Below, piece after piece: positions 5,457 through 26,085 of a stretch of DNA of 64,000 nt (its first letter is position 1; each line of letters starts with the position of its first letter). The translations under genes were made by a program, and so were the position numbers. The notes under the pieces are model-generated. The model had not been told where the DNA came from. It saw nothing but the letters and a program-made list of their open reading frames with translations, and did no database searches. Origin of the DNA: Psilocybe cubensis (Eukaryota); the NCBI GenBank assembly GCA_017499595.2, contig CM039000.1, forward strand, positions 744,001-808,000, in the 5' to 3' direction.

Positions 5457-5997
5457 CACGGCGGGCAAAAGTGCTGACTAGTCAGCCTGGGAGTTGGTCT
5501 GACCAGTCACCTGACCAGCGTGCTGACTAGTCACCTGACTAGTCATGTAGCTGTCACGCATTTATTGTCACGCTGCTAAGTTTCTGTAATTCCGCTCATT
5601 GATTGTAGAACAGAAGATCTCTTTTCTATGCCCCAGACTTACATTATTTGCTTCTTTCATGAATCTTGTTAAAGATATCTAGCATGCATCGACACAATTT
5701 TGGTATAGCATCTATTAATTGTCCATTTGTTTGAATAATGACCGAATTTCAACCAAACACAAGAAATGTCCAATTCATTCATTGCTTTTCTTCAGTGAGA
5801 TTGCTTCGGAAGACAATGGTTTATTCCCATTTAATCTTATGTTACTGAACTCATTTACCAATACTAACCAGCGTGACAACATTTGTGTGACCTCTCCTGA
5901 CTGGTCAGTTGATTCGTCACGGAACGCGTCACGATATGGTCAGGTGACTGGTCAGACCAACTCCCAGGCTGACTAGTCAGCACTTTTGCCCGCCGTG
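5457..5997. mobile_element. MITE with 61-bp perfect TIRs (CACGG...CCGTG), probably CMC/EnSpm-type
   Basis: 5457-5517 is the exact reverse complement of 5937-5997. 3-bp TSD TAT on both sides, subterminal CTGAC(T/C)AGTCA repeats and no coding capacity. Confidence 0.9.
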
Positions 5998-10353: not shown

Positions 10354-13300
10354 TCAAGCGATAACGCAGCCGCCAAACAGGCCTCCATGCTCATCACACA
10401 GGCTCTGACAACACCCTCTATTCTTGTCCTCTCCCTCCCCGCCTTGCTGTTGCTGTCGTTTCCTCCTCTCCCTCTCCCTCCGACGACTTTCTTTATCCTC
10501 CCCCACCTGTTCTTTACTTCCATTGCTCACAAACAACGACAACATAGATGCCGACGCCCCAGACCACCCCTCCTTTCCATTCTTCGCTCTAGATTTCTTC
10601 TTATCCTGTGGCCCCTTGGTAGGCGGAACACCCACAGGCCCACCGCGGCGTTTCACTTCCAAAACATACTCCCGTCGCGGCTCACCCTCTTTTGGGATAT
10701 CGTACCACCAGAACAGGCGTTGGCCGCGGATAGAGTACCGCCCGCCAGAGAGAGAGACTTCGACGTCGATGAGCGGGTGCGCGCGGCGGTCGTCGTCGCG
10801 ATCGTCTTCGGGGTCAGAGGATGGAGACGGCGGTGACGAAGATGGGGAGAACGTATCCCCAATGAGCAGCGGTGCGCGTGCGGTGGGGTCAATACCAGGT
10901 GGGAACAGACTGCTACTCGGCTTGCCAGAGGCAGCGGTAAACGTCGAAATCGAGGATTTGGGGCCAGACTTGGAGGTACCGGAGGAGGTGATGACGTTCA
11001 CGAGCGTAGCAGCCGTCGTACTCGTACTCGCACTTGCACCCGTGCTCGACGCGCTCATAGGTCCAGGAATAGGGTTCGTCATCGTGCTCAGAGGCGAACT
11101 GAGCTCATCGCTTGACTTGCGCGTCACCGGTTCGAGAGCGCGCACATGCGGCGGTGGCGGCGCACTCGTGATAACAGGCGTCGGCGCCAGCGTGGTCACA
11201 CTCGACTCCAAACTCGTCCCTCGTCGCTGTGCGGCACCCTCTTCATCTCCATCGTGCGGGACGAGGCTTGCCATGCTTGCCGTAGGCGGGTAACCTCCTC
11301 GCCCACGCTCATCTCTCAGCTTCAAGTTTCCCTGTGCTGCATATTTCTCCATCGCCTTTGCTTTCTCCTCCTTCGAGCTCCTCCGCGTGCTATCTTTCCC
11401 ACTCCGTGCGCTCTCAAGCAACCTGGGATGTGCATAGTGCACAAGCGGTAAGAACACCTCAGTTGGCATCCGTCTCTCCACTCCCCCTTCATCACCGTCT
11501 TCCTGGGTTCTGGTACCACTACTCCTACTGCTGCGATTACTGCTACCAGCAGGCGGCCGGTCTTCCCACCCAACCCATACCACAAGCTTGAACACGCCCT
11601 TTGCCACGTCAAATCGTACATCCACTGCACGACCCACAACGGCAACAGGCCACGGCCGCGCGAACGCACGCACAGCGCGGGCGCCATTCGTCAGGAATGT
11701 GTACGGGTTCAGGTCGTAACCCGCACGGAGGAGGGGGAGCGGGATACCGGAAGAAGTGGAATTGGAGGATGATGAACGGGTGTGTGGATGATGTCGGGGA
11801 CATGATTTACTGTGATGATGATGGCGATGTTTCACCAAACTTGACTTTGACGTACGCTCCGAATCAAACGACGACGCCGTCGCGGTCGACGCAACCGACA
11901 CCTTGGACCTCGAGCGCGCGTTCCCCGGTCTTCCCCGTTCATCCTGTTCAAGTTGCTGGGCGGAGGACTGGGCGCGAGTGAATCGCTGCCTTTGAACTTG
12001 CTGCGAGAGCGCATGCACATCCACGCCCATACCCGTCGACGACCCGAGGGTTGCAAGACTCAAAGACGACAACGCCGCTGTCATAGGCAGCGACCGCTCC
12101 GGCTGCTGCTGACGCTGTAACTTGCGATCAGCTTTCACCAATTTAGCACTCGACCCCGCCCGCGAAACTTGGGGACGGCGTCGGCGGCGCGCGCAGTTGC
12201 GAGGAGAGCAGTTGCATTTGATCGCCGACGCGCTGCTAGCATGAGCTCCAGCGCCGGCGAGACTAGCGAGCGCATCGGCCTCGCGTTCACCGTCCATGAG
12301 GAGCACCGCACGACTGTCCGTGCGGAGCGTCGTGGCATCGGCCTCAGCAACGACGTCGTCCAGTTCATTGTTGTCAGAGGAGACGCGAGGTATGCGCATA
12401 TCCTGCACGTCCCCGTACACACCCTCCGCCTCCCGCTGTTGCTGCTGTTGACGGCGCACAATGTCTGTTTCATCTTCTTCATCACAGCAACAACAACATT
12501 CCTCCTCGTCGTCCCTAACAACATCATCTGGACTCCACAAACTCAAATCCTCCAAGTTCCATCCATCTCCCCATTCATGTGAATGGTCGTCGGGGACATA
12601 CGTCCACACCGTATAATTCAAACTATCCCCTCGCCCATTACCCCCACCTGTTTCGCGTTCCCTCTCCCTCTCCTTACCCTTCGTCAGCACCCACGCATCG
12701 CACGCCTGTAGACTGGCGTCGAGCGCCTTTTCCTGTGAGCTGTAATCCCCCTGGTGTTTACCCGAGTCCGTCCACCCATACGCACGCTTCCCATCCATAT
12801 CGAACGGCGTCCCGATCTCCCCAATCACCGTCGGATACCCGCGCGTCGAATCACCACCCAGCACGCCAGATGCCGCAGACACGTCGCCCTGGAGGTACCC
12901 CAGCTGCTCGTGCAGTGACTTGCGGATCGCGCCCTCACCGAGCTTCACCGCGCGCAGCGCCGACGTATACTTGCCTCGCAGCAACCCTAGCGCATCCGCG
13001 TTGAACCAGTTCCAGTGGCGCGTGACAAGCGTGAGGCCGTCATAGTAATGTGGCGCGTATGCAGTGCGCCCACCGAGCTCTTCCTCTGTGAACGCAGGCG
13101 GAATCGCAAAGACCGGAGGCTGGACGAAGACCATGCCTTCAGGGTGGGCGCGCCGTACACGAGCGGCGTACGCAAGCCAATGCGGCTTCCAGTAGTCGGA
13201 CAGGAACTCGACCTCGACGCCCGTCACCGGGTGCGTGCGGAAGTACGCAGGACGCAGCACAAAGCCTGTCTCAACGTCCCAGACGCCGTGCTGTGCCCAG

Positions 13301-15157
13301 ATACACGTCCCCAACGGCCATTTCGACACATCGCGCTTCCACCCCCAGCGCGGATGCGTGCCGTCTGGCAACTCGCCACCCGCCCAGTCGGAGTCGGCAT
13401 CAGGTGAGAGTGCAGCAGCGTCCGCCCATACTTTGCGTCCCTTGGGGTCAATCTCAACTACACCGTCGCGCGTAGGACCGAACGCGCCGAACGTCCAGTG
13501 CTCAACCGTTTGCTTTTGGCCCATGCCAAGCCGCAGACTCTGTGCCGGTGTAGGATACGTGCCTTTCTTGAGCGTCGATCCCTGAGCGGTCGGATTCACA
13601 GCGAGATCTACCCACCCACACAAACCCTCAAACGGCTCGTTCAGCGAGTCCCATCCAATCACACATGCATCCAGCAAGCCCTCGCCTCTCCGCCACACAC
13701 CCGCTGCAATCTGCGCGTCATCGTACGCGCGAATACGGTCCGCAAGCCGCCCGCAAGCTTCAATGTAGTGTGACTGGAGGTAATCTTGGATGTTCACGCC
13801 ATCGATGATGCAATTTGGCGCAAAATCACGTCCGGCAAAGAAAAGTGTGAAGACGGTCTGTGAGAGGAGACGGCCATAGTTTGTCGACCAGGCCATGGCG
13901 GGGAGCGTTGCGGGGGCGGGGCCTGAGGGGTCGTATGGGGATGGGTATTCGCAGTGGAGGAGGGCGGCTTGGGTCGCGGTTATGTGTCGTGGGTTGATGC
14001 CGCAGGCGGGGAGGGTCCAGAAAGGCGCACCGGAACCGCCAGAGAAACGGGACCACTGCAGGATGTGAGTGAGAGCGCAAAATGGTTTGCAGAAGACTCA
14101 CAGTGTCTTGGTGTGGATCCATGTATACTCTGAAACCGTACTCTTTGCATTTACAGAGAACTTGAATCGTATAGTCCATGAACTCGTAGTCGTATTTGCC
14201 ACTAAAAATCACACACAATCATGTCAGCGAACGGAAGGTTTAGAATGACAGCAAGGAATAAAAGAAAGACACAAAAACGACAATGAAAGGTAAAGATTTG
14301 CCTGAGGTCAGACAAACAGAACTTGACCAGTTAGGCATGGGAAATCGTGCAATGGAAAATGGTAAGGTTGTTTGTGCTGTCTCGCGAAACAGTGGAGAGC
14401 ACATGATGGCGTCCTAGGGAACATATACCTCCTCCACAATAACTAGGCCAGGCAAGCCGGGGTTTAATGAGTGTAAGTCATTGGGACAATAACTCTTGCG
14501 GCTGCCCAGCGACATGTACCCAAAGACATCTTCAGTGGCAATACCTAACGGTAGTGCATTCCTTCTAGCTTCCTACGCGCGCAATGCATCCGACCGCGGC
14601 AGCTTCCAACAAAAAAAGAAAAGGGAAAAAAAGGAAGGAAGAAAGGGAAATACTTACGGCCCTTCATGCTCCAGCGCCTCCCAAGTGAATGGGAACCTGA
14701 GCAGATTGAAGCCCCATCCACGGAGGCGCGCGAGGTGGACATCCGCACTACCATCTTCCAGCCGCAGGGGGCGCCCAACAAAGCTCAGCTTGTCCCGTGC
14801 CTTGCCCTTGCCTTTTCCTGAACTTCTACTGCTCGCCCGACTACTCCGCCCGGAGCTGCTGCCCGAGCTCTCCCCAACCCTATCCTCATCTTCTTCGTCA
14901 TCTACAATAGCTTCTTCGTCATCTTCTTCTTCCCCGTACCAACAATCCGTATCCTCGTCTGCCCCCGCACTCTCCCAGAACCCGTCCAGCACATGCGAGA
15001 GGCGACCCACGGGGGCTTTAGACGCGCCGCTCAGGTTCACACCACGCAGCAGCAGCGTGCGCCCATGTGTATCGACGAATGAAAACGATGTCGTGTGCAG
15101 GAAAGATGGGGTAGTCGGGAGGCCTGTTGCCGGTGAGGTTGCCGGGATTTGGGGCAT
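10354..15157 (-). CDS. GH5 endoglycoceramidase-related protein (glucosylceramidase / steryl-beta-glucosidase-like), ~1433 aa
   Basis: Exons 15157-14658, 14201-14102, 14055-10354. Motifs [50 protein letters not shown] (acid/base), APHYYDG, VIGEIG (nucleophile) and [11 protein letters not shown]. Confidence 0.9.
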
Positions 15158-16615
15158 GAGTGTCTAGAGTATAGTGTTATGGGATAGATAGGGTGCGCTG
15201 TATGCCGCAAAGGTTGGAGGTTGCTTAGAGGAGTAACGGTTATCGGCAAATGGTTGACTTACTTGTTGGTTCGCTTTCTTAGTTCCCTGGTCAAGCAAAT
15301 CTTGGTGTTATTTAAGCTTGGGCCCAAGTCAAAAGTCGCACTACCTGCTCGTCGCTCGTGAGTGCGTAATACGTATCTGTTGTGTTGGGTCGCTTGGTTT
15401 AGGAGATTGAATGGCGGTCCAGTGAATGAAACGGATATGGGGTCCCTCCGTCAGTCGTCAACGGTGCGACGGGGCGTGGGTGGATACGATATGATGCGAT
15501 ACGATGGCTGCTGTGGTGTCTGAACGAACAGCACCGTTGTATTGGTAGTGGTTTAGTGTCGTATATGTATGTCAAGCAATGTTATCCAGGTATTGAAATT
15601 TGAAGAAGTAAATGTGTGCGTCTGAATCCCAAATGTGCCAATATCGTTAACGTAATCTCCCGTTCAAAGTTTTATCGTGGTTCGTTGAGTGCGTCGTCTT
15701 GGAGCAGCTCCTGGCGAGCTAAGGGTGCGATTGCTTGGAACAGAGCGAAAGGAAAGAAAGAGGAGCAACGTCGGCGACGACGACAGCGGCGGCGGTGGTG
15801 GTGGTAGATACACAATAGGTGGTGAGGTCATCCAACGCCAACCATAAACGGACAACAACAACCAAAAATCTAAGGTCGTACCACAATGCTTTCATTCATT
15901 ACATAACCCCACCACCGGAATTAAAGCCTCACTGGACTTGAACTTGAACCCGAGCAACCCCTTTCAGTCGATCTCTGAATCAAATCAGGGAAGCGCAGCC
16001 CAGGTCAAGTCTCAAGATCTCATGCCACAAGTTCATGGCGGTGCAGCTTGCAGTAGCAGGCATCGATATTATTTGCCATTAGTAAGTCATCGGCTGGATA
16101 ATAAACGAATGCATGGCACAGCGAGGCCGCCCCCGGCCCCGACTTGGACTCGCTTGGACTGTGCTGGAGGCTCTAATTGAATGTTGGAAGGGGAATGGAC
16201 TACAGTTTCCCAACTGGAACATTCTGGGGTTCTATGCGAAAACCGGCCCGATACTGATAGGAGTGATGCGAAAAATAAAAAAGGAAAAAGAAAAAGAAAA
16301 GAAAAAGGGAGAGGAGAAAGGAAGGGATTATTGCTTAGCTTTGCGACAGTTTAGATAACACTGTACCTGTGATGTCCAATAATGATTAGTAGGCTCGCAT
16401 GGCTAGTTCGGGGGACCCTTTTTTATACCTTTATGAGCTGGATTGTCGCTTAACTGGTTTGGTTCTCTCTCAAATTAGCATGGCATTGGTTCAGACCCTT
16501 TTTCTTGTATTTTCGGCACAGATACTCGCGTAGATTATATTCGCAGACTAAGCTAAAGTTGGAAAGCACGATTAGATTGCAGGTTACGGTAGTATGTAAG
16601 TATGCTAGTAGTCCA

Positions 16616-19600
16616 TTAATTCCATCCCTCATAACACTTCTTCGTGGGTCTCTTTGTATTTCTGCCTTTGCAGCTATTGTATTGGCCGCAATCTTGACAG
16701 CGGTTGCGACACAGGTTAACGTTGCTGCTTCCGGAGCAGTCTCTTTGGCCACATTTGCGGCACGTCCGCCGTTTTCGTGGCTTTTTGATTGGCTTTGTTT
16801 TCTGGAGTGATTCAACCACTCGTTGACGCGCAAGCTTCTCCATAATGATTTTGTTCTGTAATTGATGGCTTCTAGGCGAGGTAGGGCACATTTGCTGATG
16901 TTCGAGTTGTTGAGGAGCTGAAATAACATCTGTTTCGCGCCAAAATTCAATGTCCCGGCTTGCCATGTCATCGCGAGAAAGCTGTTGACTTGGTAAATCC
17001 GAGTCAACATGCATGGCATTTGTTGTAATGGGCAACGGTGCCAACATGCGATTTCCATTATCATTGGTTTCTAGCAAGCCTTCGCAAGCAGTGAGAGGTT
17101 GTGGGCACGGTTTGAAAGGTACAACAGGTGCTTTTCGTGAACGTGATGGGTCGTGAATGATGATTGAGAGTGGTCCACGGATATCTGCAGTAAGAGACAG
17201 AGTTTCGTGGATGTGTGAAAGTGTTTTCCATTTATTATAATATGCGCTCAATTGCTCAACAAGCTAAAAAAAATGAATATTTGGACTAAGATGTTACTCA
17301 CAAACAAAAAGACCAAAACAACATACCTTGTAAGAGACATCATTTGTTATGTCAGCCTTTGCATTCCATACTGGAACTGCATCTCGCCATTGTGGCTCTC
17401 CAGACACCGGACTAAAGGCAGCGTGACTTTTGATCAGATCATGGAAGAGCTTCTTTTCCGTTGCTGTATGAACAGGTAGCACAGGCTTTCGAGTGCCCTG
17501 AATATTGGCAAGATACTGATGCATTTGTGGCTGATTAGGAATAACAGTATTTGAATTATATGGAAGCATGCCTGTGGCCGTTCGAATGCTTTCTGGAATA
17601 GGCAGAATCCCAAGAACTTCAGTCGTTGGCGAATAGAGGTTGCCATTGACCCAGCCATCAATTTGGACTGGGTTGATGAGTATATTGTCGAGTGAAATTG
17701 TAAGTTCCTGGAGTTTGTTTATGATCCATATCGAGAAATGACTTCGATATGGTTGGCCAGTAGAGTTGTATGTACCCGTCTAAAGTCATGTTTAGTTAGT
17801 AATTGTTGAAATTTGATTGAAATAGTAAATTTACTTACCTGGAGATTGTGCCGAAGAACAAAGTCCTTAAGACAAGCCTGCATATGTCGGAAAGACGTGC
17901 CAAACTTTGGCAAGCGGGACCGTATATGGGTATGAACACCGCCTTCAGTTGTATTTGTACCACGGGCACATCTGTATATGGGAAGGCCTGTTGATTTGTC
18001 GGTCCCAATTCGTGTATACAAAGGAATTCCAGGAGGATCAGATAAATATCCTCCTATAGCAAGTTCAAGAATATGTTTGGCAGTTTTCCAGCCTTCCACT
18101 GAAAACAGGGGCTTTTTGGTTTTGGGATCCCTCAAGGGACCATATGTGCGAAAGACTTTGGCAAGATATTCATAGACAATATGTGGTGATGGAATATGGT
18201 GCTTGCATCATTGACGTACCCATTCTGAGCGTGAATTTCGTAGCTGCTCATATGTTTGAGGTGGAGACCACGTTGCACCAATTGCGTCAATACGATCCTT
18301 GTCATCTTTATCAGGAATAAAGATTGCATCGCGCAGATCACGAGTAAACTGCTTTCGGAGCCCATGAGTGGCGGGAATGTAGAACATGTGGAAAACATGC
18401 CACACGTCCTTGATGACACGACTGTGCAGTGTATAATCCCACTGATCTGGATCTTTTCCCAAGTACTCCTTGCAGAATAACACACTTTCAGGATCAACCT
18501 CAAAGCCTTGCACAGAATCAGTAGAACATCCTTCAGAGAGGTCATCAGATAAGAGATCCCCAACCGAGCAAGAAGGCTCTGAATCATTGGGTGCAGCAAA
18601 GTCACATTCGGAATCAGCATCCTGAAAAATGCTTGCAGATTCATAGGGGGTTTCGGTTTCAGGCTCGGAGCTGGCAGATTCACAAAATTTGATTGTCCTT
18701 GTTGATGAGGCGGCAGGATCATAAAGTCGAAGATGGCTCTGTAAGCAGACTATCGAAAACGGTGTTTGGCCAAACGATTTCAGAGTTTGCCGACGATGCT
18801 GTGGAATAATCGCACCCGGAACAAGAACTTTGAGAACATCAATAACTGTTCTCCGTGCAGAAACTTTGATTCCATCATATGTTTGGCTTCGGGCGTGACG
18901 TGATATTTGACCTTCTGCAATGATTGTAGTGTTATCGTTGCTGAAGAGAATGACCGGCATGCAAGGTTCCACCAATGATGGGAGTAGAGATGGCACTTTG
19001 ATGTTTTGCATTTCTTTGTAGAGGCAGAGCGAAGCGTATGCATCTTTTGCAGCATAGCTTAACTGCTCGGGGGACAAAACAATATTCTCCCACAAGTTAC
19101 TGATTCGTTCTGGTACATTTTTGTCGAGACGTTTATGCAAAATCCGTGCACACAGATCTGCCAGACTTGTTTTTGAAATATTTGATATTAAAAGGCGATC
19201 TTTGGCAAGTTTTCCAAGATCAACTCCCCCGACAAAGTCATACGACGAGTTAGAGGCTTTTTGGAGATAAGAGAGGTCAGATTTGATCATCCGACCCACT
19301 TTCAAAATTCGTGGATGAGCGAGTAACAGCTTTAGTTGATGTGGCAGGTCCCCCTTTGCAAGCATTTCACTAATCTAATTTGTAAAAGCAGGTCAGGTCA
19401 CTATACTATAATATTCATCAACAAAAACCCACCTGAAGCACATATATGCAATCCTGATAAGCAATTTGTATAATCGCTGTCTTGCCACGATGGGTCACGT
19501 GACCACGAGACGAAAGCTCTACATTCCATTCAGAATCAAAACCAACAGCAATATATCCCTGATCCTGGGGAACATCATCGAGAATAGATCGTGCAGCATC

Positions 19601-21756
19601 ATTGATTGAGTGTGGTGAATCCTTGGGAAGAAGCTTGACCTGCGGAGAAAGTTCAAAGGGCTCCAAATCTGCATACTTTTCAACTGGCACTACACCGGCT
19701 CGAAGAGAAGGGAAGCACCGCTCCAAGAATGCCTTATCGGTGATATTATCGGTGAAGAAAAGTTGAGGCTGGGAGTGACCGTAAAGATCAAGAGACTTTG
19801 CCATGGCTTTCAAAGGCAATTCAGATTGTGATTGCGCTTTGGTTGCAACAAGATTGCACGTCCTTATTTCGCCTTTTTCATTGGTTACCGTAAGAAGGCC
19901 AGTGAAAACCTGTTCACCTTCGACACGGGCTAAGTGTTTTGTAATCTATATTGCTTCCAATTAGCAATTAATCAGAGAATTGAAGAAAATATACTGACTT
20001 TGTGGCTATGGTCAATAGCACATATCTCACCCGTCAACATCGCCGTGTGCTGGTTGAAATCGTGGCCGTGCTTTTCAATAAACGAGTCATACATATCTCG
20101 AATCCATTGGGCACTAGGAATATATCCATGACGTCCTCTTGGGCTTGTGTCATTGAAGGGCAGAAAGGATTCAAATTTTCTGTTATTCCAGGTGCCATCC
20201 AATGTGTTTCTTCGTTCGCAAAGGTGTGTCAGATACTGCAGATTGAGCAGGTCATGTCGAAGCAGATGCTGTGTACGCAAACCGTCGGAAAATTGCTTTG
20301 TTCCCATACCATTCTGAATACAGGTTCTCAACCAATTAAACGCTGTCTTGGATATGGCACTACGATAACTTATTCTTGCAAGGAAGCATTTTAAGGATCT
20401 CGGGATCCCAACTTCGAAATGTGACTGTACGTGTTCCAGGTTTTGAATAAATACATGTGGGGCAACGGTAACGATATCCGATAATATAGAATGTTGAGTC
20501 CATATCAACACATCGACGAGGACGTGGAATTTCAGAATGCCGTTGCAAGCGTCTTCCGCACTTGGGGCAAGAGATACCGTCGTTGCAAAGAGGAAGGGGA
20601 TCCCAGAGCATAAATCGAGAGTCATAGCAATCGGGAGGTGATGGGTGCGACGAGTTTCGAAGAATGAAATAAACCGATTTTGTCGGAAACCAAAATGTGT
20701 GTTGATTGGCATATAATGGAGGCAGACCATTTGCGTCGCGTTGCCGCGACTCTTTGAGATGTTGTCGAAATTGCTCCATCAGCCACTCGGGTAACGGCTT
20801 TACCATGGGAGCTCCAGAAGACAAAGGTGAAGGGCAATCTTCATCGTCATCCAAATCATCTTCGACACCAACACCATCTCCAGATGCATCGTCATCATCC
20901 AGCGGCACAATTTCGCGCTGTGGATCTTCACTACCAATAATTGTATCATGTGGAGGCGTTGTGTGGGTAGATGGTGGCGGACGTGTGGTGCAGGGATTGG
21001 ATGCAACCAACTGGCCGCTGTGCAGTTGAGGCGGTACACTGGGTCTGGGACTATGATTTGAACTGCGGGATGGTGGAACAAAGGAATAAGGTGGGGCAAG
21101 CAAAGCTGGAGGTGTTATCCTGCTAGTACCAGGATTTGTCTAGAAAATAATGAGAAGAAAGATATCACAAAACAAAAAACCACGCACCGATGTCCTGAAT
21201 TCGATCGACACTGCAGGAGATGCCAACTTCTGTTTTTTTGGCCTTCCTCGTGGACGTTTTGCAGGCGGCGCTACTCCCTCTAACGCTAGTGCAGCCGCTC
21301 GCTTTTGTTTGTACCCGGATCCAGGAGGTCGACCGCGTCGTGGACGTGGGGAATCGACGGCAACGGTGTGCGCACACGTTGCAAGAGGGGCCGTCACCGA
21401 CGACGAAGGTGTCCCAAGAGCTGCATTTGGGGCATCGGCAAGATTATCTGTGTGGGAAGTGACAACCGTGAGTGTGAGTACCCTAGAAAGCAGATTCTGA
21501 TGAACTAGTTCGCATACCATTGATAGTGATGTTGTGCAAGTTTCTCGTATAGGTAAGCCTCCCAGCCAAGTTCCTAGCACTGCCAGTGCACTTTAGTCAC
21601 GGTTCAAACAAGCAAACAAGGCCTTCTGGCTCACCTTGCGTCAGCATTGCCTCCGAGCCTCAAAGGTGCCCCAAACTGGCTCTGCATTCCATTCTGTGCA
21701 GCCGGAATGTGATCTTGTTCGCGTTCGTTGTTCACAGGAAATAATTCCGTGTTCAT
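16616..21756 (-). mobile_element. Zisupton/KDZ-like transposase gene with embedded DEDDy 3'-5' exonuclease, disrupted
   Basis: N-terminal AT-hooks (RRGRPP, RPRGRPK), CPKC...YRCPTC, candidate catalytic motifs AIDHSHK, FTDN, DVWH and YRCARGTNTTEG, exonuclease motifs GFDSEW...YAAKDA, and a Cys-rich C-terminus. In-frame TGA at 18208-18210 and a frameshift near 20380. Start codon and element ends uncertain. Confidence 0.7.
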
Positions 21757-23445
21757 AAATAAACGAAGCCGGTTATCGAAGGCAGTACAAAGAGATTTAT
21801 AGCTGGAGTTGTCGTTCTCGTTGGGTTCTCGAGAACGGATGCACGGGGATGACTTCATAATTACATAATATTTTCCGTGATTTTTTTCAAACTCAGAATC
21901 CGTATCCGTATCCGTCACCGCTATCAGTATCGAGCCCGAAAACCAATTCTAATTTTCTCGGACCATGGGGAGTCAACCCACAGGGGCTTCCAGGGGCTTC
22001 CCCACACCCAACTGGATCAGGACATCGAGGAGAAATTGAAATTATCTCGGGAGCTTTCAATGCATGTATTTATTTTTATCTCATGCTTGTTTAGGGGAGA
22101 GAGTTAATTAGGAGAATCGGGAGGAGGAGGAGAAATAGATAATAAGGGACAAGGCAAAGTCAGTTGAACTGAACGACGGGAATATCAGCATTGAGGCGCA
22201 AGGAGATCTAGTACAGGAAATAAGTTGCTCAAGGTTCTCTGTACTCGAAATATGGGCGTTGAAACTTGGAAAGCCTTTCAGAAATAAAATGGAAAACAGG
22301 CCAAACTTTGAAATGAAGTAAAATACATGAAATCATCGTCGTTCCTGGAGTTTGTTCCTGCCCATTGAAAAGTAACGGTAATCAAGAGCAAAGTGCACAC
22401 GAATGATACCATCAAGAGTATTCACGCGCCACACAAGTTACGACGCCATCCTACCATTAAGTTCCTTTAACATATCGGATCGCATCACAACCTCAATATC
22501 TGAAGCTCACCCATTTACATATCATCTCTCTAGGGCCATTCTATACATTCTACTATACAAACGGTCGATCCCGTCGCGCCCGTATCAGTACCAGTACCAT
22601 GCTGACATGTCATTGTCACCCGGATTTTCACTGAGATTGACATTAACACGGTCAACTAAATACACAGTCAATGCTCGGGTATCATCTCTCCGATGAGTAG
22701 CCACGAGATTTGCGCCGATGCTTTTCCAGCAAGTAAATGTAAAAGACTAATCACAAATAATTCTTAGAAAAGGGCGGAGAGCGCAGTAGAAACATATCTT
22801 TCGGGTACAAGTGCAGCCAGAGGTCCTCTCTTTGTTTAAATTCTTTATTTTCATTGTCCTTCTTTGCTCACTCGTTGACACGCTGAATCCTGCGAGGGAT
22901 TAATAGGAACCACGGAACTCATGAGGTAGTATGTCTGGCATGCGAATGGCCAAGAAAAAAGGACGAAACTCATCATCAATCTTCAAAACTTCAGGATTGG
23001 ACAATGAGATGTACATTTATCTTTCTTTGCATTTAAATGTCTGATAGAAGAGTTCTACTGCTACAAAATGAAATACAGATAGTATAGCATCTAACATCAC
23101 CGCAGCTACAAACCCAGTCTCTCATCTTGATTTACCAATGCAGGTCCAGCTGATTAACACCCTCCCGGCCTCGGCCTCTGCCCACAAAATAGCAGTACAG
23201 CCTTGAACGGACCGAAACCCATGTATCATACAGGGATATTTCCAATGCTCTGCTCTTCCTTGCTCCTTGCTCCCCCGTCCGCGCTACATGATCTCCTTTT
23301 GCGTCTGACCTCATTTTCCAAAAATAGACCGCTGATCTGATTTGATCCCTCAGTTGTGATTGCTGATTGTCGCACAACGATCCCGTGGATCTGGAGAGCC
23401 GTGCGCGGGAAACCGCGCCTCTCTTGCAACGCGTACGTCGTTATC

Positions 23446-24370
23446 ACGATTAACTGAATGAAGAAAGGCGACTTTCTGAGGGGCACAGTCAAGTTCGACA
23501 TCCATTTTATACCTCGCGATAACCACTATTTTCCTATTTGGAAACTACAGTACAACTTCAAACTTGCGTGAATTTCTCCAGGAACAGGGTTTCTTGCTAT
23601 TCCAGTCCCAGCTTGCAATGAGGTGAATTGGACCACCTGTCAGAGCTGCATTTCCTTTTAACTCTATGGAGAATCGATCGATATTTAGCCCTGTCTTGAA
23701 GTAAAGCAATTAGAAGAGATGTGATTTGCCGAACCTGGTATCTTGAACCGGCCAGGAAAGGTGCCACAACGTCAACGAACCCAGAGTTAATGTATTTAGA
23801 ATTTTACCGTATGACCCATTGATGTAAATGGACAAGGTGCGCGGTCACTTTGTTCGGTTTTGTGAATAACAAAAGGCCCAATGAAATTACCTGGCCTTCT
23901 TGTAGATCTATATCAACAATGTAGATGGGTGTGAGCTTTAGTGTCAAGGGTTCGAAGAGTATGGATGGATCATATTATACTGGAAGACGTCACATTTAAA
24001 TTCGCCAGAAGCAGCTCGCCCGTTGCCACAGGTTCCATTTGCGCGTACATTACAATAAAATTCAAGGCAAGAATCTTCTCCCTTTTTCACAGAGCTTATA
24101 CCTATTTCAAGATTCTGATTTTTATTTTCAGCTCGGTTTACTAAGTAAAGCAACTCAAGATAAACTGTGTCTAACCTTGTGCGAGTCTTGACTGCTGCTT
24201 TAGTTTTTGTGAATAAGTCTTACGACCATGCAACATATGCGTTTGATGACCCCCTGAACCCACAAGCATCTGGAAAATTCCGGAGACTCTCAAGTGAGGA
24301 AAACTTCAGAGGATTTGAGTTTGTGGAGTTCAGCAGGCGACACTCGCTAGTCTCAACGGTCGGTGCTATA
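23446..24370 (-). pseudogene. Orphan hydrophobin-module remnant (promoter and 5' leader, coding sequence absent)
   Basis: 23446-23800 aligns with 1203-1560, including the TATA box. Similarity stops ~13 nt before where the ATG would be. 23850-24350 resembles 1600-1990. Confidence 0.75.
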
Positions 24371-24392
24371 ACAGCAGTTTCCGATTTTTTTC

Positions 24393-26085
24393 CTCTTATA
24401 TTGCTTTTTTATTACGCTCTTACATACACATATCCACTTGTACAAAATGCACCGCGTCGTACAAACATTGCATTTATTCTCCAGATATCGGGAATGCTTG
24501 AATGATGGATCATGCTGATGAGTTGGGACTCGGGCGCTTACAGGTTTCAATGGGCGCCTATCGATATTTGGCGTAGTGGCGAAATGCCAAGAACCTTTCT
24601 AAGCGCGGCAGTGTAAACCGCGCACCGCAAGTCACTTATGAATCTTAGATGTGAGCCTCATAATTGATGTGCTCACACAAATAGACATATTCATATTATG
24701 CGAAGTACTGTACTATACCAGTCTCTCGTCCCATGCCGGAACCGGTATTCGAACAGCCGTCAGAGATCTACCAACACATAGCTTGAGAACTGGGACATTG
24801 GCACAATGGCAGCATTTGGCGTCCATAAGTGAAAAGGTTTAAACTGAATAGCACCAAATCAAAACTCTGGAAATTCAACAGGTCAACAGACAACAAAACG
24901 CATGATCTTGGAACATCAGATCGTTGACATTGATGACCCTTATGGTTTTTCAAAAATTATCCACTGAATTCATATATGTTGCCAAAAACAAGGTTTATTA
25001 CATTATTTTCTCCCAGCTATTTCTCATTGCACATTTTTTTGTTTGTTTTCTTTTAGGCTGTCGAGGTTATGCAAAGTACTGTCTGTATCTCAATTGCAGC
25101 CAACTGCGGTACCAGTTCGAGCGCCGATAGGGGTCTATAGGAGCGTAGGTCAATGTCAATTTACTATGATGAGCCTAGCGGCAACGATGCAGAAGGTTAT
25201 CACGTACTAAACGGACGCAACATGCAGTCGTTTGCCCATGGAATCCACAGTCGAGGCCACCAGGCGTGCAGTTGACTATGCAACACATAAACAAAGCAAA
25301 GTCAGTTTAAATGAGTCCCTGTACCACAGTCAAATACGGAGATACGAACTGCCAACGTTTCCACCTGGGCGGACGCTCGGGACGACAGCGTCACAGCAAA
25401 ATGCGCTGCATGCAGGCGCAGTCGCAGCTGCCGAAGCCATGAAGGGCAGAGTCGAGAGAGCGAGAGCGATGGCAGAGAGGAACTTCATCTTTGGTGAAAC
25501 GAACTGAGTGAAGAAAGACAACTTTCTGAGGAATATAGCTAACATGTCCAGGACATCCATTTTATACCCTCGTACTGCCCACTTTTTTCATTTGGGTACT
25601 AAATTTGGATAATATCGTATACGAGTATCTCCGGTAACTTGGCTGCTCTCTAATCCATTCACCAGTGTGGGCAACGAGGTAGAGTATCCTACTCTCAGAA
25701 TTACATTCTCTTAATTTCTGATGAGAATTGGTTACCACCTGACCCATTCCGTAAAGGAAAGGCGTCGATGTGAAGAACTATGATACACAGAATTCAGGCG
25801 GCGAGAGAACGAGTCCGACGTCGACGAACTCCACGATTCATGCAATTCGAATCTTACATTATGACTTCTTGATATAAATGGTCGAGATGTTGCTCGTTGT
25901 TCGGTTTCGTGAATAGCACAAACTCCGATTGGCAGTTCGCGGATAGTTCTGACTTGGTTATGACATCAATATTTTTCAGTAGGAGTCATGCTTAATTCCT
26001 GGACCTTCCGGGTTCTTGTGTACACAATTGCGGAAGCAGGCATGAATTGTTATACAGAAATTTGTCATGTTCTACCAACAATGTA
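24393..26085. repeat. Right arm of ~1.69-kb near-identical inverted repeat (partner 8528-10220)
   Basis: Reverse complement of 8528-10220. More diverged similarity continues outward at 26086-26555 versus 8126-8527. Confidence 0.95.
25090..25488 (-). CDS. Small secreted 8-Cys hydrophobin-like protein, copy C (identical to B)
   Basis: Mirror of 9125-9523 inside the inverted repeat. Exons 25488-25350, 25275-25208, 25134-25090. Confidence 0.85.

What the first reader, a model, noticed from the sequence alone, without database searches (positions are those of the whole stretch)
16616..21756. Zisupton/KDZ-like transposase carrying a complete DEDDy 3'-5' exonuclease inside its catalytic core
Seen: along the minus strand the order is AT-hooks, a CxxC Zn module, AIDHSHK (~20005), FTDN (~19750), then ExoI GFDSEW (~19535), ExoII KSDL and ExoIII YAAKDA (~19045), then DVWH (~18403), YRCARGTNTTEG (~17950) and a Cys-rich tail. 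Established: DEDDy motifs define WRN/RNase D-type exonucleases; a D..D..(C/D)xxH..E layout is typical of the MULE/hAT/KDZ-related transposases; YRCARG..E is recalled from Zisupton-type proteins. Inference: an exonuclease with all acidic residues retained sits in the transposase insertion domain. It could trim ends or flanks during transposition, or degrade silencing RNAs. I cannot say how well this fusion is already documented.
Basis: partly seen in the sequence, partly recalled or inferred. Interest (0 to 1): 0.75.

Follow-up and report, generated by a model that had tools for sequence, protein, structure and literature searches.

The report
Dada transposon with built-in exonuclease
This is one slightly broken copy of a still-mobile jumping gene of the mushroom Psilocybe cubensis whose cutting enzyme carries a built-in DNA-trimming module, a design already reported in 2013 for the related mushroom Laccaria.

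Summary

The DEDDy exonuclease shares open reading frames with the transposase motifs on both sides. A spliced contig removes the intron inside it.

The gene is the only gene of a 5,692-bp DNA transposon (16245..21936). The element has 22-bp terminal inverted repeats and an 8-bp target duplication (CGAAAACC). Other P. cubensis strains carry the exact empty site, and the same element sits at other loci.

The window copy is broken by a 23-nt deletion and one TGA. A near-identical intact copy exists elsewhere.

The family assignment (Zisupton/KDZ) is not supported. The architecture matches Dada, for which Kojima and Jurka (2013) described this same exonuclease insertion, between the second D and DxxH, in Laccaria. 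Laccaria homologues score E=0.

So this is a new member of a known kind.

New here for this lineage:
- a conserved terminus motif;
- 8-bp duplications in 6 of 7 complete elements;
- near-invariant catalytic residues across 137 homologues;
- three head-to-tail end junctions with 6-8-bp spacers, which recall IS256 circles.

The parts
16237..16244 (.). Target-site duplication, left copy (CGAAAACC)
   Evidence: Searches show the repeat. One search shows the empty-site joint 16236->21937 with 8 letters fitting both sides.
16245..21936 (-). Whole transposon, 5,692 bp (exonuclease-bearing Dada lineage)
   Evidence: a 26-kb contig of run X9 and 18 reads of run X14 skip exactly 5,700 bases. Loose ends at 21936/21937 lead into other flanks in X7 and X14.
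16245..16266 (+). Terminal inverted repeat at the 3' end of the element (GGCCCGATACTGATAGGAGTGA)
   Evidence: 19 of 22 bases complementary to the other end; it matches the family terminus motif.
16265..16327 (+). Purine-rich (A/G) tract just inside the 3' terminal repeat
   Evidence: 63 nt, 95% purine; the same feature is in all 7 complete elements compared.
21915..21936 (-). Terminal inverted repeat at the 5' end of the element (GGCTCGATACTGATAGCGGTGA on the minus strand)
21937..21944 (.). Target-site duplication, right copy (CGAAAACC)
21635..21756 (-). Exon 1 (start codon at 21756)
   Evidence: identical to protein P0001 except L49P, which lies in the next exon.
21518..21579 (-). Exon 2
21188..21447 (-). 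Exon 3, with two AT-hooks (21346-21314, 21259-21227)
   Evidence: Its 3' splice joint 21188->21139 is seen in a spliced X8 contig.
19999..21139 (-). Exon 4. It holds the acidic/low-complexity region, the DUF6729 region with the CCCC zinc finger (20569-20453), and the first catalytic D (AIDHSHK, 20019-19999).
20379..20380 (-). Lesion 1: site of a 23-nt deletion. It removes residues 402-409 of P0001 (SSLAAEFP) and shifts the frame.
19433..19945 (-). Exon 5: second catalytic D (FFTDN, 19759-19745) and ExoI (GFDSEW, 19543-19526)
18991..19576 (-). DEDDy 3'-5' exonuclease domain (about residues 660-835 of P0001). It is interrupted by the 58-nt intron 19432-19375.
   Evidence: Pfam PF01612. Profile match to the WRN exonuclease, 7e-25. 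Intron removal is seen.
17839..19374 (-). Exon 6. It holds ExoII (19284-19273), ExoIII (19056-19039), a conserved post-exonuclease block, an acidic linker, DxxH (18408-18391) and the catalytic E motif (17976-17938).
18208..18210 (-). Lesion 2: in-frame TGA where intact copies have CGA (Arg1096 of P0001)
   Evidence: In run X14, 22 of 22 reads carry the intact base at 18210.
17327..17779 (-). Exon 7 (conserved region after the catalytic E)
16616..17263 (-). Exon 8, with a conserved C-terminal cluster of eight cysteines (16762-16619) and the stop codon at 16618-16616

Best explanation
The region is one copy of an autonomous DNA transposon of Psilocybe cubensis. It belongs to the exonuclease-bearing fungal lineage of the Dada superfamily.

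Its single eight-exon gene encodes a transposase of about 1,585 residues, built in this order:
- AT-hooks
- a CCCC zinc finger within DUF6729
- catalytic D532 and D602
- an inserted WRN-type DEDDy 3'-5' exonuclease plus a linker, about 400 residues together
- D1030xxH1033
- catalytic E1184
- a C-terminal cluster of eight cysteines

Shown:
- The element has 22-bp inverted ends beginning with GGC.
- It inserts with an 8-bp target duplication.
- Its presence is polymorphic among strains, with an exact empty site.
- It exists as an intact copy elsewhere in the genome.
- It is transcribed and spliced.
- The window copy is inactivated by a 23-nt deletion and one nonsense codon.

Inferred:
- The DDE/DxxH core binds the conserved ends and carries out strand cleavage and transfer with an 8-bp stagger.
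- The exonuclease is an active, selected part of the same polypeptide. It works on DNA 3' ends created during the reaction, trimming flanking or transposon 3' ends, as Kojima and Jurka proposed.
- My odds for the exonuclease's role: about 0.5 for a DNA-end role in transposition, 0.2 for a specific role in an IS256-like circle pathway, 0.1 for an RNA role, and the rest unknown.
For: Identity of organism and gene:
- The window exon is 100% identical to P. cubensis proteins P0001 and P0002. Cluster members are named 'Werner Syndrome-like exonuclease'.

Mobility:
- Inverted ends and an 8-bp direct repeat flank the gene.
- Joint 16236->21937 skips 5,700 bases with 8 shared letters. It is seen in the X9 contig and in 18 X14 reads from 15 start places.
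- Loose ends at 21936/21937 lead into two other flanks: 25 reads in X14 and 1 contig in X7.
- One assembly holds an intact copy and the window-type copy on different contigs.

One transcript:
- The motifs share open frames.
- Spliced joints are present in run X8.

Selection across 137 homologues, counted among rows with a residue at that column:
- D532 118/119; D602 125/126
- D673 125/130; E675 128/132; D740 126/130; Y814 128/133; D818 128/132
- D1030 125/127; H1033 125/127; E1184 111/112
- Mean pairwise identity is 0.46 in the exonuclease block, 0.55-0.56 in the catalytic halves and 0.23-0.29 in the variable regions.

Dada assignment:
- The paper states the same insertion point in Laccaria and Ectocarpus Dada, an N-terminal CCCC finger, and a D-D spacing of 68 against 70 here.
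- Laccaria homologues: P0010 is 43% identical over 1,138 residues (E=0); P0062 is 36% identical (E 3e-135). Their contig lengths are compatible with the published Dada-1_LB and Dada-2_LB coordinates.
- Look-alike clusters of both flanking halves are commonest in Chordata, with scores 0.90 and 0.98.

Family-wide ends:
- 29 termini matching GGCNCGNTAYNNRTGYNNGTGG were found in 65 metagenome loci, against 0.8 expected in shuffles.
- The target duplication is 8 bp in 6 of 7 complete elements.

Exonuclease type:
- WRN 7e-25, EXD2 3.7e-18, Mut-7 1e-12.
Against: - No direct alignment with a named Dada reference was possible.
- Three points depart from the published Dada diagnosis: an 8-bp rather than a 6-7-bp duplication; true terminal inverted repeats; and no small-RNA gene at the target (Rfam and ARAGORN found nothing), with three different flanks seen.
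- The C-terminal cluster is eight cysteines, not CCHC.
- The RNase H fold was not shown here.
- Profile-profile comparison with IS256 transposases aligned only the E motif and was not significant: probability 1.4%, E 0.037, and probability 0.3%, E 0.22.
- The MULE Pfam matches are weak (E 0.019-0.058) and occur in 4 of 34 proteins.
- Nothing tests what the exonuclease acts on.
Confidence: 0.85

Rival explanations
1. The element moves like prokaryotic IS256 elements, by copy-out/paste-in through a circle or tandem dimer with abutted ends. The built-in exonuclease serves that pathway, for example by processing the nicked or branched donor.
For: What is known for the IS256 family (PMC7780238, passages read):
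- a C/DxxH motif in an insertion domain
- 8-bp A/T-rich target duplications
- circle junctions with 6-8-bp spacers (5, 6, 7 or 19 bp for IS256 itself); a 6-bp spacer integrates best

What is seen here:
- The duplication is 8 bp in 6 of 7 complete elements.
- Three loci have a right end abutting a left end, with spacers of 6, 6 and 8 nt (L034, L065, L046).
- Contig L034 has a 123-nt terminal overlap, which indicates a circular or tandem path.
- The L065 spacer AATATC equals the flank-proximal 6 nt expected from its right-hand flank TAATATC.
- The Dada paper itself reports tandem copies separated by 6 bp where the flanks look like 8-bp duplications, and reports a distant similarity of Dada to IS256.
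Against: - The junctions come from metagenome assemblies of other family members. Tandem insertion next to a resident end would give the same contigs.
- No 'goes back' joint between 21936 and 16245 was reported in the X14 reads.
- Similarity to IS256 is not significant in hhalign.
- A 3'-5' exonuclease has no obvious step in the bacterial pathway.
Confidence: 0.2
2. One reading: the transposase belongs to the Kyakuja-Dileera-Zisupton (KDZ) group.
For: Zisupton makes 8-bp target duplications (PMC12730594, passages read), as this element does. KDZ elements are common in Agaricomycetes.
Against: - No PF18758 (KDZ) match in 4 proteins at E<=5 or in 30 proteins at E<=1.
- The domain found instead is DUF6729.
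- The DxxH motif, the D-D spacing and the exonuclease position are those published for Dada.
- Kyakuja ends are CA..TG without inverted repeats. These ends are GGC..GCC with inverted repeats.
Confidence: 0.05
3. The exonuclease acts on RNA, for example by degrading small silencing RNAs or their precursors, and protects the element from host silencing rather than taking part in DNA chemistry.
For: The domain is also related to Mut-7 (1e-12) and NanoRNase C (5e-10). These enzymes act on RNA (from general knowledge, not tested here).
Against: - The best matches are the DNA exonucleases WRN (7e-25) and EXD2 (3.7e-18).
- The domain is embedded between catalytic residues of the transposase rather than appended. 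This argues for action at the transpososome.
Confidence: 0.1
4. It is a host gene, a Werner-syndrome-like exonuclease as the databases name it, possibly domesticated from a transposase, and not a mobile element.
For: Sources name it 'Werner Syndrome-like exonuclease' or 'Werner syndrome ATP-dependent helicase-like protein'.
Against: - Its presence is polymorphic, with an exact empty site and an 8-bp duplication.
- It has inverted ends that are conserved across the family.
- Copies sit at different loci.
- Two copies 99.3% identical lie at different sites with different duplications in metagenome contigs.
- Many copies are decayed.
- No helicase domain is present.
Confidence: 0.02

Closest known systems
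Dada superfamily, families Dada-1_LB and Dada-2_LB of Laccaria bicolor (Kojima and Jurka 2013, PLoS One 8:e68260)
   Same: - A DDE transposase with DxxH after the second D.
- An N-terminal CCCC zinc finger.
- A multi-exon gene in an element of about 5.7 kb (Dada-2_LB spans 5,652 bp by its published coordinates).
- A DEDDy exonuclease with all four acidic residues, placed between the second D and DxxH.
- Laccaria homologues of this protein score E=0 and 3e-135.
   Different: - The published diagnosis gives 6-7-bp duplications, no terminal inverted repeats, and insertion into U6, U1 or tRNA genes.
- This lineage has 8-bp duplications, 22-24-bp terminal inverted repeats and no small-RNA target.
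- The paper names no target for the Laccaria families, and says that all elements with clearly definable termini lay in small RNA genes.
- The C-terminal cluster here is eight cysteines, not CCHC.
IS256 family of bacterial insertion sequences (IS256, ISCth4; Kosek et al. 2021, PMC7780238)
   Same: - A C/DxxH motif between the second D and E.
- An 8-bp target duplication that tends to be A/T-rich.
- Abutted-end junctions with 6-8-bp spacers.
- A TN..E motif around the catalytic E, which is the only region hhalign aligns.
   Different: - Prokaryotic, about 400 residues, with no exonuclease.
- Similarity is not statistically significant here.
- Circle intermediates are not shown for this element.
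Kyakuja-Dileera-Zisupton (KDZ) transposons of fungi
   Same: Large transposases with cysteine clusters, common in Agaricomycetes. Zisupton also makes 8-bp duplications.
   Different: - No KDZ Pfam match in 34 proteins.
- The ends differ.
- No TET/JBP partner gene lies in this element, which has a single gene.
Other eukaryotic transposons that carry an exonuclease: KolobokD (DEDDh) and KolobokE (lambda-exonuclease-like) (PMC9587614)
   Same: A DDE transposon of the C/DxxH group that encodes its own exonuclease, thought to act on transposition intermediates.
   Different: The exonuclease class is different (DEDDh or PD-D/ExK), and so is the superfamily. Here the domain is embedded inside the catalytic region.
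WRN exonuclease domain (PDB 2e6l, 2fbt), EXD2 and Mut-7
   Same: The DEDDy motifs ExoI, ExoII and ExoIII. Profile E-values are 7e-25, 1.6e-21, 3.7e-18 and 1e-12.
   Different: Those are host repair or RNA-processing proteins. No helicase is present here, and the domain is a module of a transposase.

Membership tests
Dada superfamily | DDE triad with a DxxH motif after the second D (D567, D635 and E811 in Dada-U6_DR; D-D spacing 68) | tested here: met
   D532, D602, D1030xxH1033 and E1184 in P0001, with a D-D spacing of 70. Each is kept in at least 98% of the homologues that have a residue there. That these residues are catalytic is inferred from the motif pattern, not shown.
Dada superfamily | N-terminal CCCC zinc finger (Cx4C...CxxC in Dada-U6_DR) | tested here: met
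   C339-x2-C342-x31-C374-x2-C377. The first three are kept in 103-107 of 108-110 rows with a residue; the fourth is kept in 73 of 89.
Dada superfamily | C-terminal CCHC zinc finger | tested here: inconclusive
   A conserved C-terminal cluster exists, but it has eight cysteines and no conserved histidine.
Dada superfamily | Sequence homology to named Dada transposases | tested here: inconclusive
   Strong homology to Laccaria bicolor proteins with the same architecture. These are taken to be Dada-1_LB and Dada-2_LB from the paper's description and from compatible contig lengths. The named reference sequences could not be read. No animal relative was retrieved. Chordate look-alike clusters appear only through language-model features.
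Dada superfamily | 6-7-bp target-site duplication | tested here: not met
   8 bp in the window and in L043, L055, L056, L058 and L064; 7 bp in L042. The paper itself notes apparent 8-bp repeats for Dada-U1. I treat the length as a trait of the lineage, not as a bar to membership.
Dada superfamily | Insertion at a fixed site inside small RNA genes (U6, U1, tRNA); no terminal inverted repeats | tested here: not met
   No Rfam or tRNA match at or around the target. Three different flanks are seen. Terminal inverted repeats of 22 bp are present. The paper gives no target for the Laccaria families.
Dada, exonuclease-bearing lineage (Laccaria, Ectocarpus) | DEDDy exonuclease with all four acidic residues, between the second D and DxxH | tested here: met
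   Residue order D602 < D673, E675, D740, Y814, D818 < D1030. PF01612 matches 29 of 30 members. Residues are conserved in 125-128 of 130-133 rows.
KDZ (Kyakuja-Dileera-Zisupton) | Match to the KDZ transposase family (Pfam PF18758; accession recalled) | tested here: not met
   It is absent from the families listed for 4 proteins at E<=5 and for 30 proteins at E<=1.
IS256 / MULE group | Significant profile similarity to Transposase_mut (PF00872) or MULE (PF10551) | tested here: inconclusive
   hhalign against 16 IS256-family proteins gave probability 1.4% (E 0.037) and 0.3% (E 0.22), over the E motif only. MULE gave E 0.019-0.058 in 4 of 34 proteins.
RNase H-like DDE transposase fold | RNase H-like fold carrying the three acidic residues | not testable with these tools
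Profile searches of the PDB found exonucleases only.

The most novel reading that the evidence does not exclude
The exonuclease-bearing fungal Dada elements, and perhaps Dada in general, may be eukaryotic counterparts of IS256. On this reading they transpose by copy-out/paste-in through circles or tandem dimers whose abutted ends are separated by about 6 bp, and then insert with an 8-bp duplication. The embedded WRN-type exonuclease would be the adaptation that lets a transposase that nicks only one strand work on eukaryotic DNA. This reading would also reinterpret the '6-bp duplication but 8-bp flanking repeat' puzzle in the 2013 Dada paper.
Probability: 0.2. Interest if true: 0.8.

Novelty: new member of a known kind. 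Interest (0 to 1): 0.42.

Why it matters
Three reasons.

1. Annotation. Genome annotations call these genes 'Werner syndrome-like exonuclease' or 'helicase-like' host proteins. They are transposases of a very large family. The exhaustive search found 1,698 representatives at 50% identity with E<=1e-30, and named relatives occur across Basidiomycota. Filing them correctly removes false DNA-repair genes from mushroom gene sets.

2. A usable model. This element is young and probably still active in a cultivable fungus. An intact copy exists, strains differ in where it sits, and it is transcribed. That makes it a practical system for asking what an exonuclease does inside a transposase, a question left at a single sentence in 2013.

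3. Mechanism. The 8-bp duplications together with the 6-8-bp end-to-end junctions make it testable whether a eukaryotic DDE transposon uses the bacterial copy-out/paste-in route.

Tried and rejected
- **Whole genome:** none is held for this window, so copy number came from reads and protein records only.
They may hold the direct proof of identity with Dada-1_LB and Dada-2_LB.
- **Structure prediction:**
  - The first job was interrupted.
  - So there is no fold evidence and no fold search.
- **Exhaustive profile search:**
  - The first job failed because the profile had 1,206 positions.
  - It was repeated with a smaller alignment.
  - The 150 rows listed were all strong family members, so relatives without an exonuclease could not be seen.
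- **Word-based searches for animal relatives**: only fungal or unnamed hits.
- **Small-RNA target:**
  - Rfam at gathering threshold found nothing on the window.
  - Rfam at E<=5 found nothing on 15600-22600.
  - ARAGORN found nothing.
  - The left flank TGCGAAAACC resembles the Dada duplication GCGAAA. I reject this as chance, because the two other flanks share nothing with it.
- **IS256 similarity by hhalign:** not significant. NCBIfam showed only exonuclease-type weak hits. PDB profile searches showed only exonucleases.
- **Terminal hairpins:** none.
- **L034 as a solo element:** rejected. Its apparent inverted repeat and 8-bp duplication lie inside a 123-nt terminal overlap of the contig.
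- **RNA runs:** no RNA holder is listed in the run index. The only expression evidence is the spliced contigs of X8, whose RNA label is a guess.
- **Earlier scan notes:** none on this genome or this sequence.

Full report
**What is in the sequence**

On the minus strand between 21756 and 16616 there is one gene of eight exons:
- 21756-21635
- 21579-21518
- 21447-21188
- 21139-19999
- 19945-19433
- 19374-17839
- 17779-17327
- 17263-16616

I fixed the exon limits by requiring GT..AG introns and agreement with a database protein. Pfam finds DUF6729 (PF20499) over the zinc-finger region and the 3'-5' exonuclease family PF01612 over the ExoI-III region.

The exonuclease is not a separate gene. ExoI shares a stop-free frame with the second catalytic aspartate (FFTDN). 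ExoII and ExoIII share a stop-free frame with DVWH. The intron that splits the exonuclease domain is removed in a contig of run X8, as is the intron at 21187-21140. The flanking host gene is spliced in the same run. X8 is only guessed to be RNA, but its spliced contigs say that it is.

**Organism and state of this copy**

The window exon is 100% identical to two Psilocybe cubensis proteins. P0001 (1,585 aa) is an intact version. The window copy differs from it by:
- three substitutions (L49P, S636P, H1141C);
- a 23-nt deletion at 20380|20379, which removes residues 402-409 and shifts the frame;
- a TGA at 18210-18208 in place of Arg1096.

P0002, and P0257 from a second assembly, are gene models spliced around these lesions. 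That same second assembly has the intact type (P0256) on another contig. A second subfamily, 43-47% identical (P0006), has three copies at 99.8% identity or more on one 3.05-Mb contig.

**It is a mobile element with defined ends**

- A 22-nt inverted repeat (19 of 22 complementary) lies at 16245-16266 and 21915-21936. It is flanked on both sides by CGAAAACC.
- Public reads settle the limits. A 26-kb contig of run X9 joins 16236 directly to 21937, and so do 18 reads of run X14 from 15 start places. The skip is 5,700 bases, with 8 letters fitting both sides. This is the exact empty site with one copy of the 8-bp target.
- Reads and contigs that run out of the element at 21936/21937 into two other sequences show copies at other loci (25 reads in X14, 1 contig in X7).
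- In X14, all reads carry the intact-type bases at 18210, 18074/5, 19648 and 21556.

The element is therefore 16245..21936 (5,692 bp) with an 8-bp target duplication, and its presence is polymorphic among strains. The rest of the window holds ordinary host genes (a GH5-like gene, a kinase, a PL14 lyase, a cation-efflux gene) and no second copy. The element sits about 470 bp beyond the end of the X8 contig covering the neighbouring GH5-like gene, on its upstream side.

**The family**

- Two word-based searches gave 66 and 107 relatives. Every named one is from Basidiomycota: Agaricales, Polyporales, Boletales, Atheliales and Rhodotorula.
- A third search added short fragments, including Tulasnella.
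- The exhaustive profile search counted 14,447 hits at E<=1e-3 and 1,698 at E<=1e-30. The first figure includes ordinary exonucleases. The 150 hits listed all scored above 520 bits.
- In an alignment of 137 relatives, the DDE, DxxH and DEDDy residues are all close to invariant.
- The exonuclease block is as conserved as the DUF6729 block (0.46 against 0.47 mean pairwise identity). It is far more conserved than the linkers (0.23-0.29).
- The exonuclease is closest to WRN (7e-25), then EXD2 and Mut-7.

**Which superfamily**

KDZ/Zisupton is not supported. No KDZ Pfam match appeared in 34 members scanned.

A literature search for Zisupton plus exonuclease led to Kojima and Jurka 2013 (PMC3706591). 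The paper defines Dada by:
- a DDE triad with DxxH after the second D;
- an N-terminal CCCC finger;
- a C-terminal CCHC finger.

[quoted passage not shown] It proposes that the exonuclease processes cleaved 3' ends. That is exactly the architecture found here.

Further agreement:
- The D-D spacing is 70, against 68 in the paper.
- Two Laccaria bicolor proteins are strong homologues (E=0 and 3e-135).
- Their contigs are long enough to hold the published Dada-1_LB and Dada-2_LB coordinates.
- Dada-2_LB is 5,652 bp by its coordinates, against 5,692 bp here.
- Language-model look-alikes of both halves flanking the exonuclease are commonest in Chordata (0.90 and 0.98). This fits the fish Dada families but is only a lead.

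I could not align this protein with a named Dada sequence, so the assignment rests on the description and on the Laccaria link.

What the searchable library holds:
- Only that one paper joins Dada and DEDDy in the transposon sense.
- DUF6729 occurs in no paper.
- Muszewska et al. 2017 (passages read) count 1,023 fungal Dada copies without mentioning the exonuclease.

**What is new for this lineage**

From 65 metagenome loci encoding relatives I recovered 29 termini matching GGCNCGNTAYNNRTGYNNGTGG, against 0.8 expected in shuffles. I also recovered six more complete elements.

| Element | Target duplication |
|---|---|
| window | 8 bp |
| L043 | 8 bp |
| L055 | 8 bp |
| L056 | 8 bp |
| L058 | 8 bp |
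| L064 | 8 bp |
| L042 | 7 bp |

- L043 and L055 are 99.3% identical copies at different sites.
- All seven elements share a purine-rich tract inside the 3' repeat.
- These traits depart from the published Dada diagnosis: 8 bp rather than 6-7 bp, true inverted ends, and no small-RNA target.
- The paper gave no target for the Laccaria families.

**An unexpected observation**

In three loci a right end is followed directly by a left end, with spacers of 6, 6 and 8 nt (L034, L065, L046). Of 26 termini with at least 30 nt of outside sequence, 6 (three junctions) abut another terminus. Contig L034 has identical first and last 123 nt, so it closes on itself with a period of 5,962. The L065 spacer equals the six flank-proximal bases expected from its right-hand flank.

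This is the signature described for IS256-family elements: 8-bp duplications, and circles or dimers with 6-8-bp spacers (PMC7780238, passages read). The Dada paper reports tandem copies 6 bp apart despite 8-bp flanking repeats.

Against this reading:
- Tandem insertion would give the same contigs.
- No such joint was reported in the P. cubensis reads.
- hhalign against 16 IS256 transposases aligned only the catalytic-E motif, without significance.

I give this reading 0.2.

**Mechanism**

Shown:
- mobility with an 8-bp staggered target;
- conserved ends;
- one polypeptide carrying both sets of catalytic residues;
- transcription and splicing;
- purifying selection on the exonuclease residues.

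Inferred:
- the DDE/DxxH core performs cleavage and strand transfer;
- the exonuclease acts on DNA 3' ends generated in that reaction.

Its similarity ranks WRN above Mut-7, and it is embedded between catalytic residues. Both points favour DNA at the transpososome over an RNA role. No experiment or structure bears on this yet.

**Verdict**

The fusion has been in print since 2013. This is a new, recently active member of a known kind, with lineage traits and end junctions that deserve a bench test.

Noticed in passing
L034 (junction near 5951-5968), L046 (4022-4041), L065 (26-43): The right and left ends of family members lie head to tail, with 6-, 8- and 6-nt spacers. Contig L034 closes on itself (123-nt terminal overlap, period 5,962). 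These are tandem dimers or circles.
   Followed up: partly
window 16265-16327, and the matching place in L043, L055, L056, L058, L064 and L065: A 60-80-nt purine-rich (A/G) tract lies just inside the 3' terminal repeat in all seven complete elements. A shared GATTCTGAGTTTGAA block follows the 5' repeat in four of them.
   Followed up: partly
window 13000-25000 as laid in run X7: Of the 252 places where the X7 contigs differ from the window, 183 are C>T or G>A. This looks like deamination or RIP-like mutation of diverged copies or of another haplotype.
   Followed up: no
window 20430-21448 against 19566-20358: In the spliced run X8, the contig over the 5' part of the gene has a word depth of 366, while the downstream contigs have about 8-11. 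This could be a short abundant 5' transcript or a contribution from another copy.
   Followed up: no
window 22680, 22856 and 23008-23085: Many X14 reads leave the window at 22680 (114 reads) and 22856. A 76-nt stretch is replaced by 26 other letters at 23008-23085. This points to another structural difference or a repeat boundary close to the element.
   Followed up: no
window 24333-24388: The X9 contig carries 2,305 extra letters between 24333 and 24388. This is a second insertion/deletion polymorphism between strains.
   Followed up: no
Proteins P0055, P0115, P0147 and P0241 (relatives): Some database models of this family are fused to protein-kinase or other domains, or reach 2,000-3,350 residues. 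They are probably gene-model artefacts around transposon copies.
   Followed up: no
L043 5308-5400 and L055 215-360: The 5' end of this related element carries 3 to 6 tandem copies of a 19-nt unit just inside the terminal repeat. The copy number differs between two copies that are 99.3% identical.
   Followed up: no
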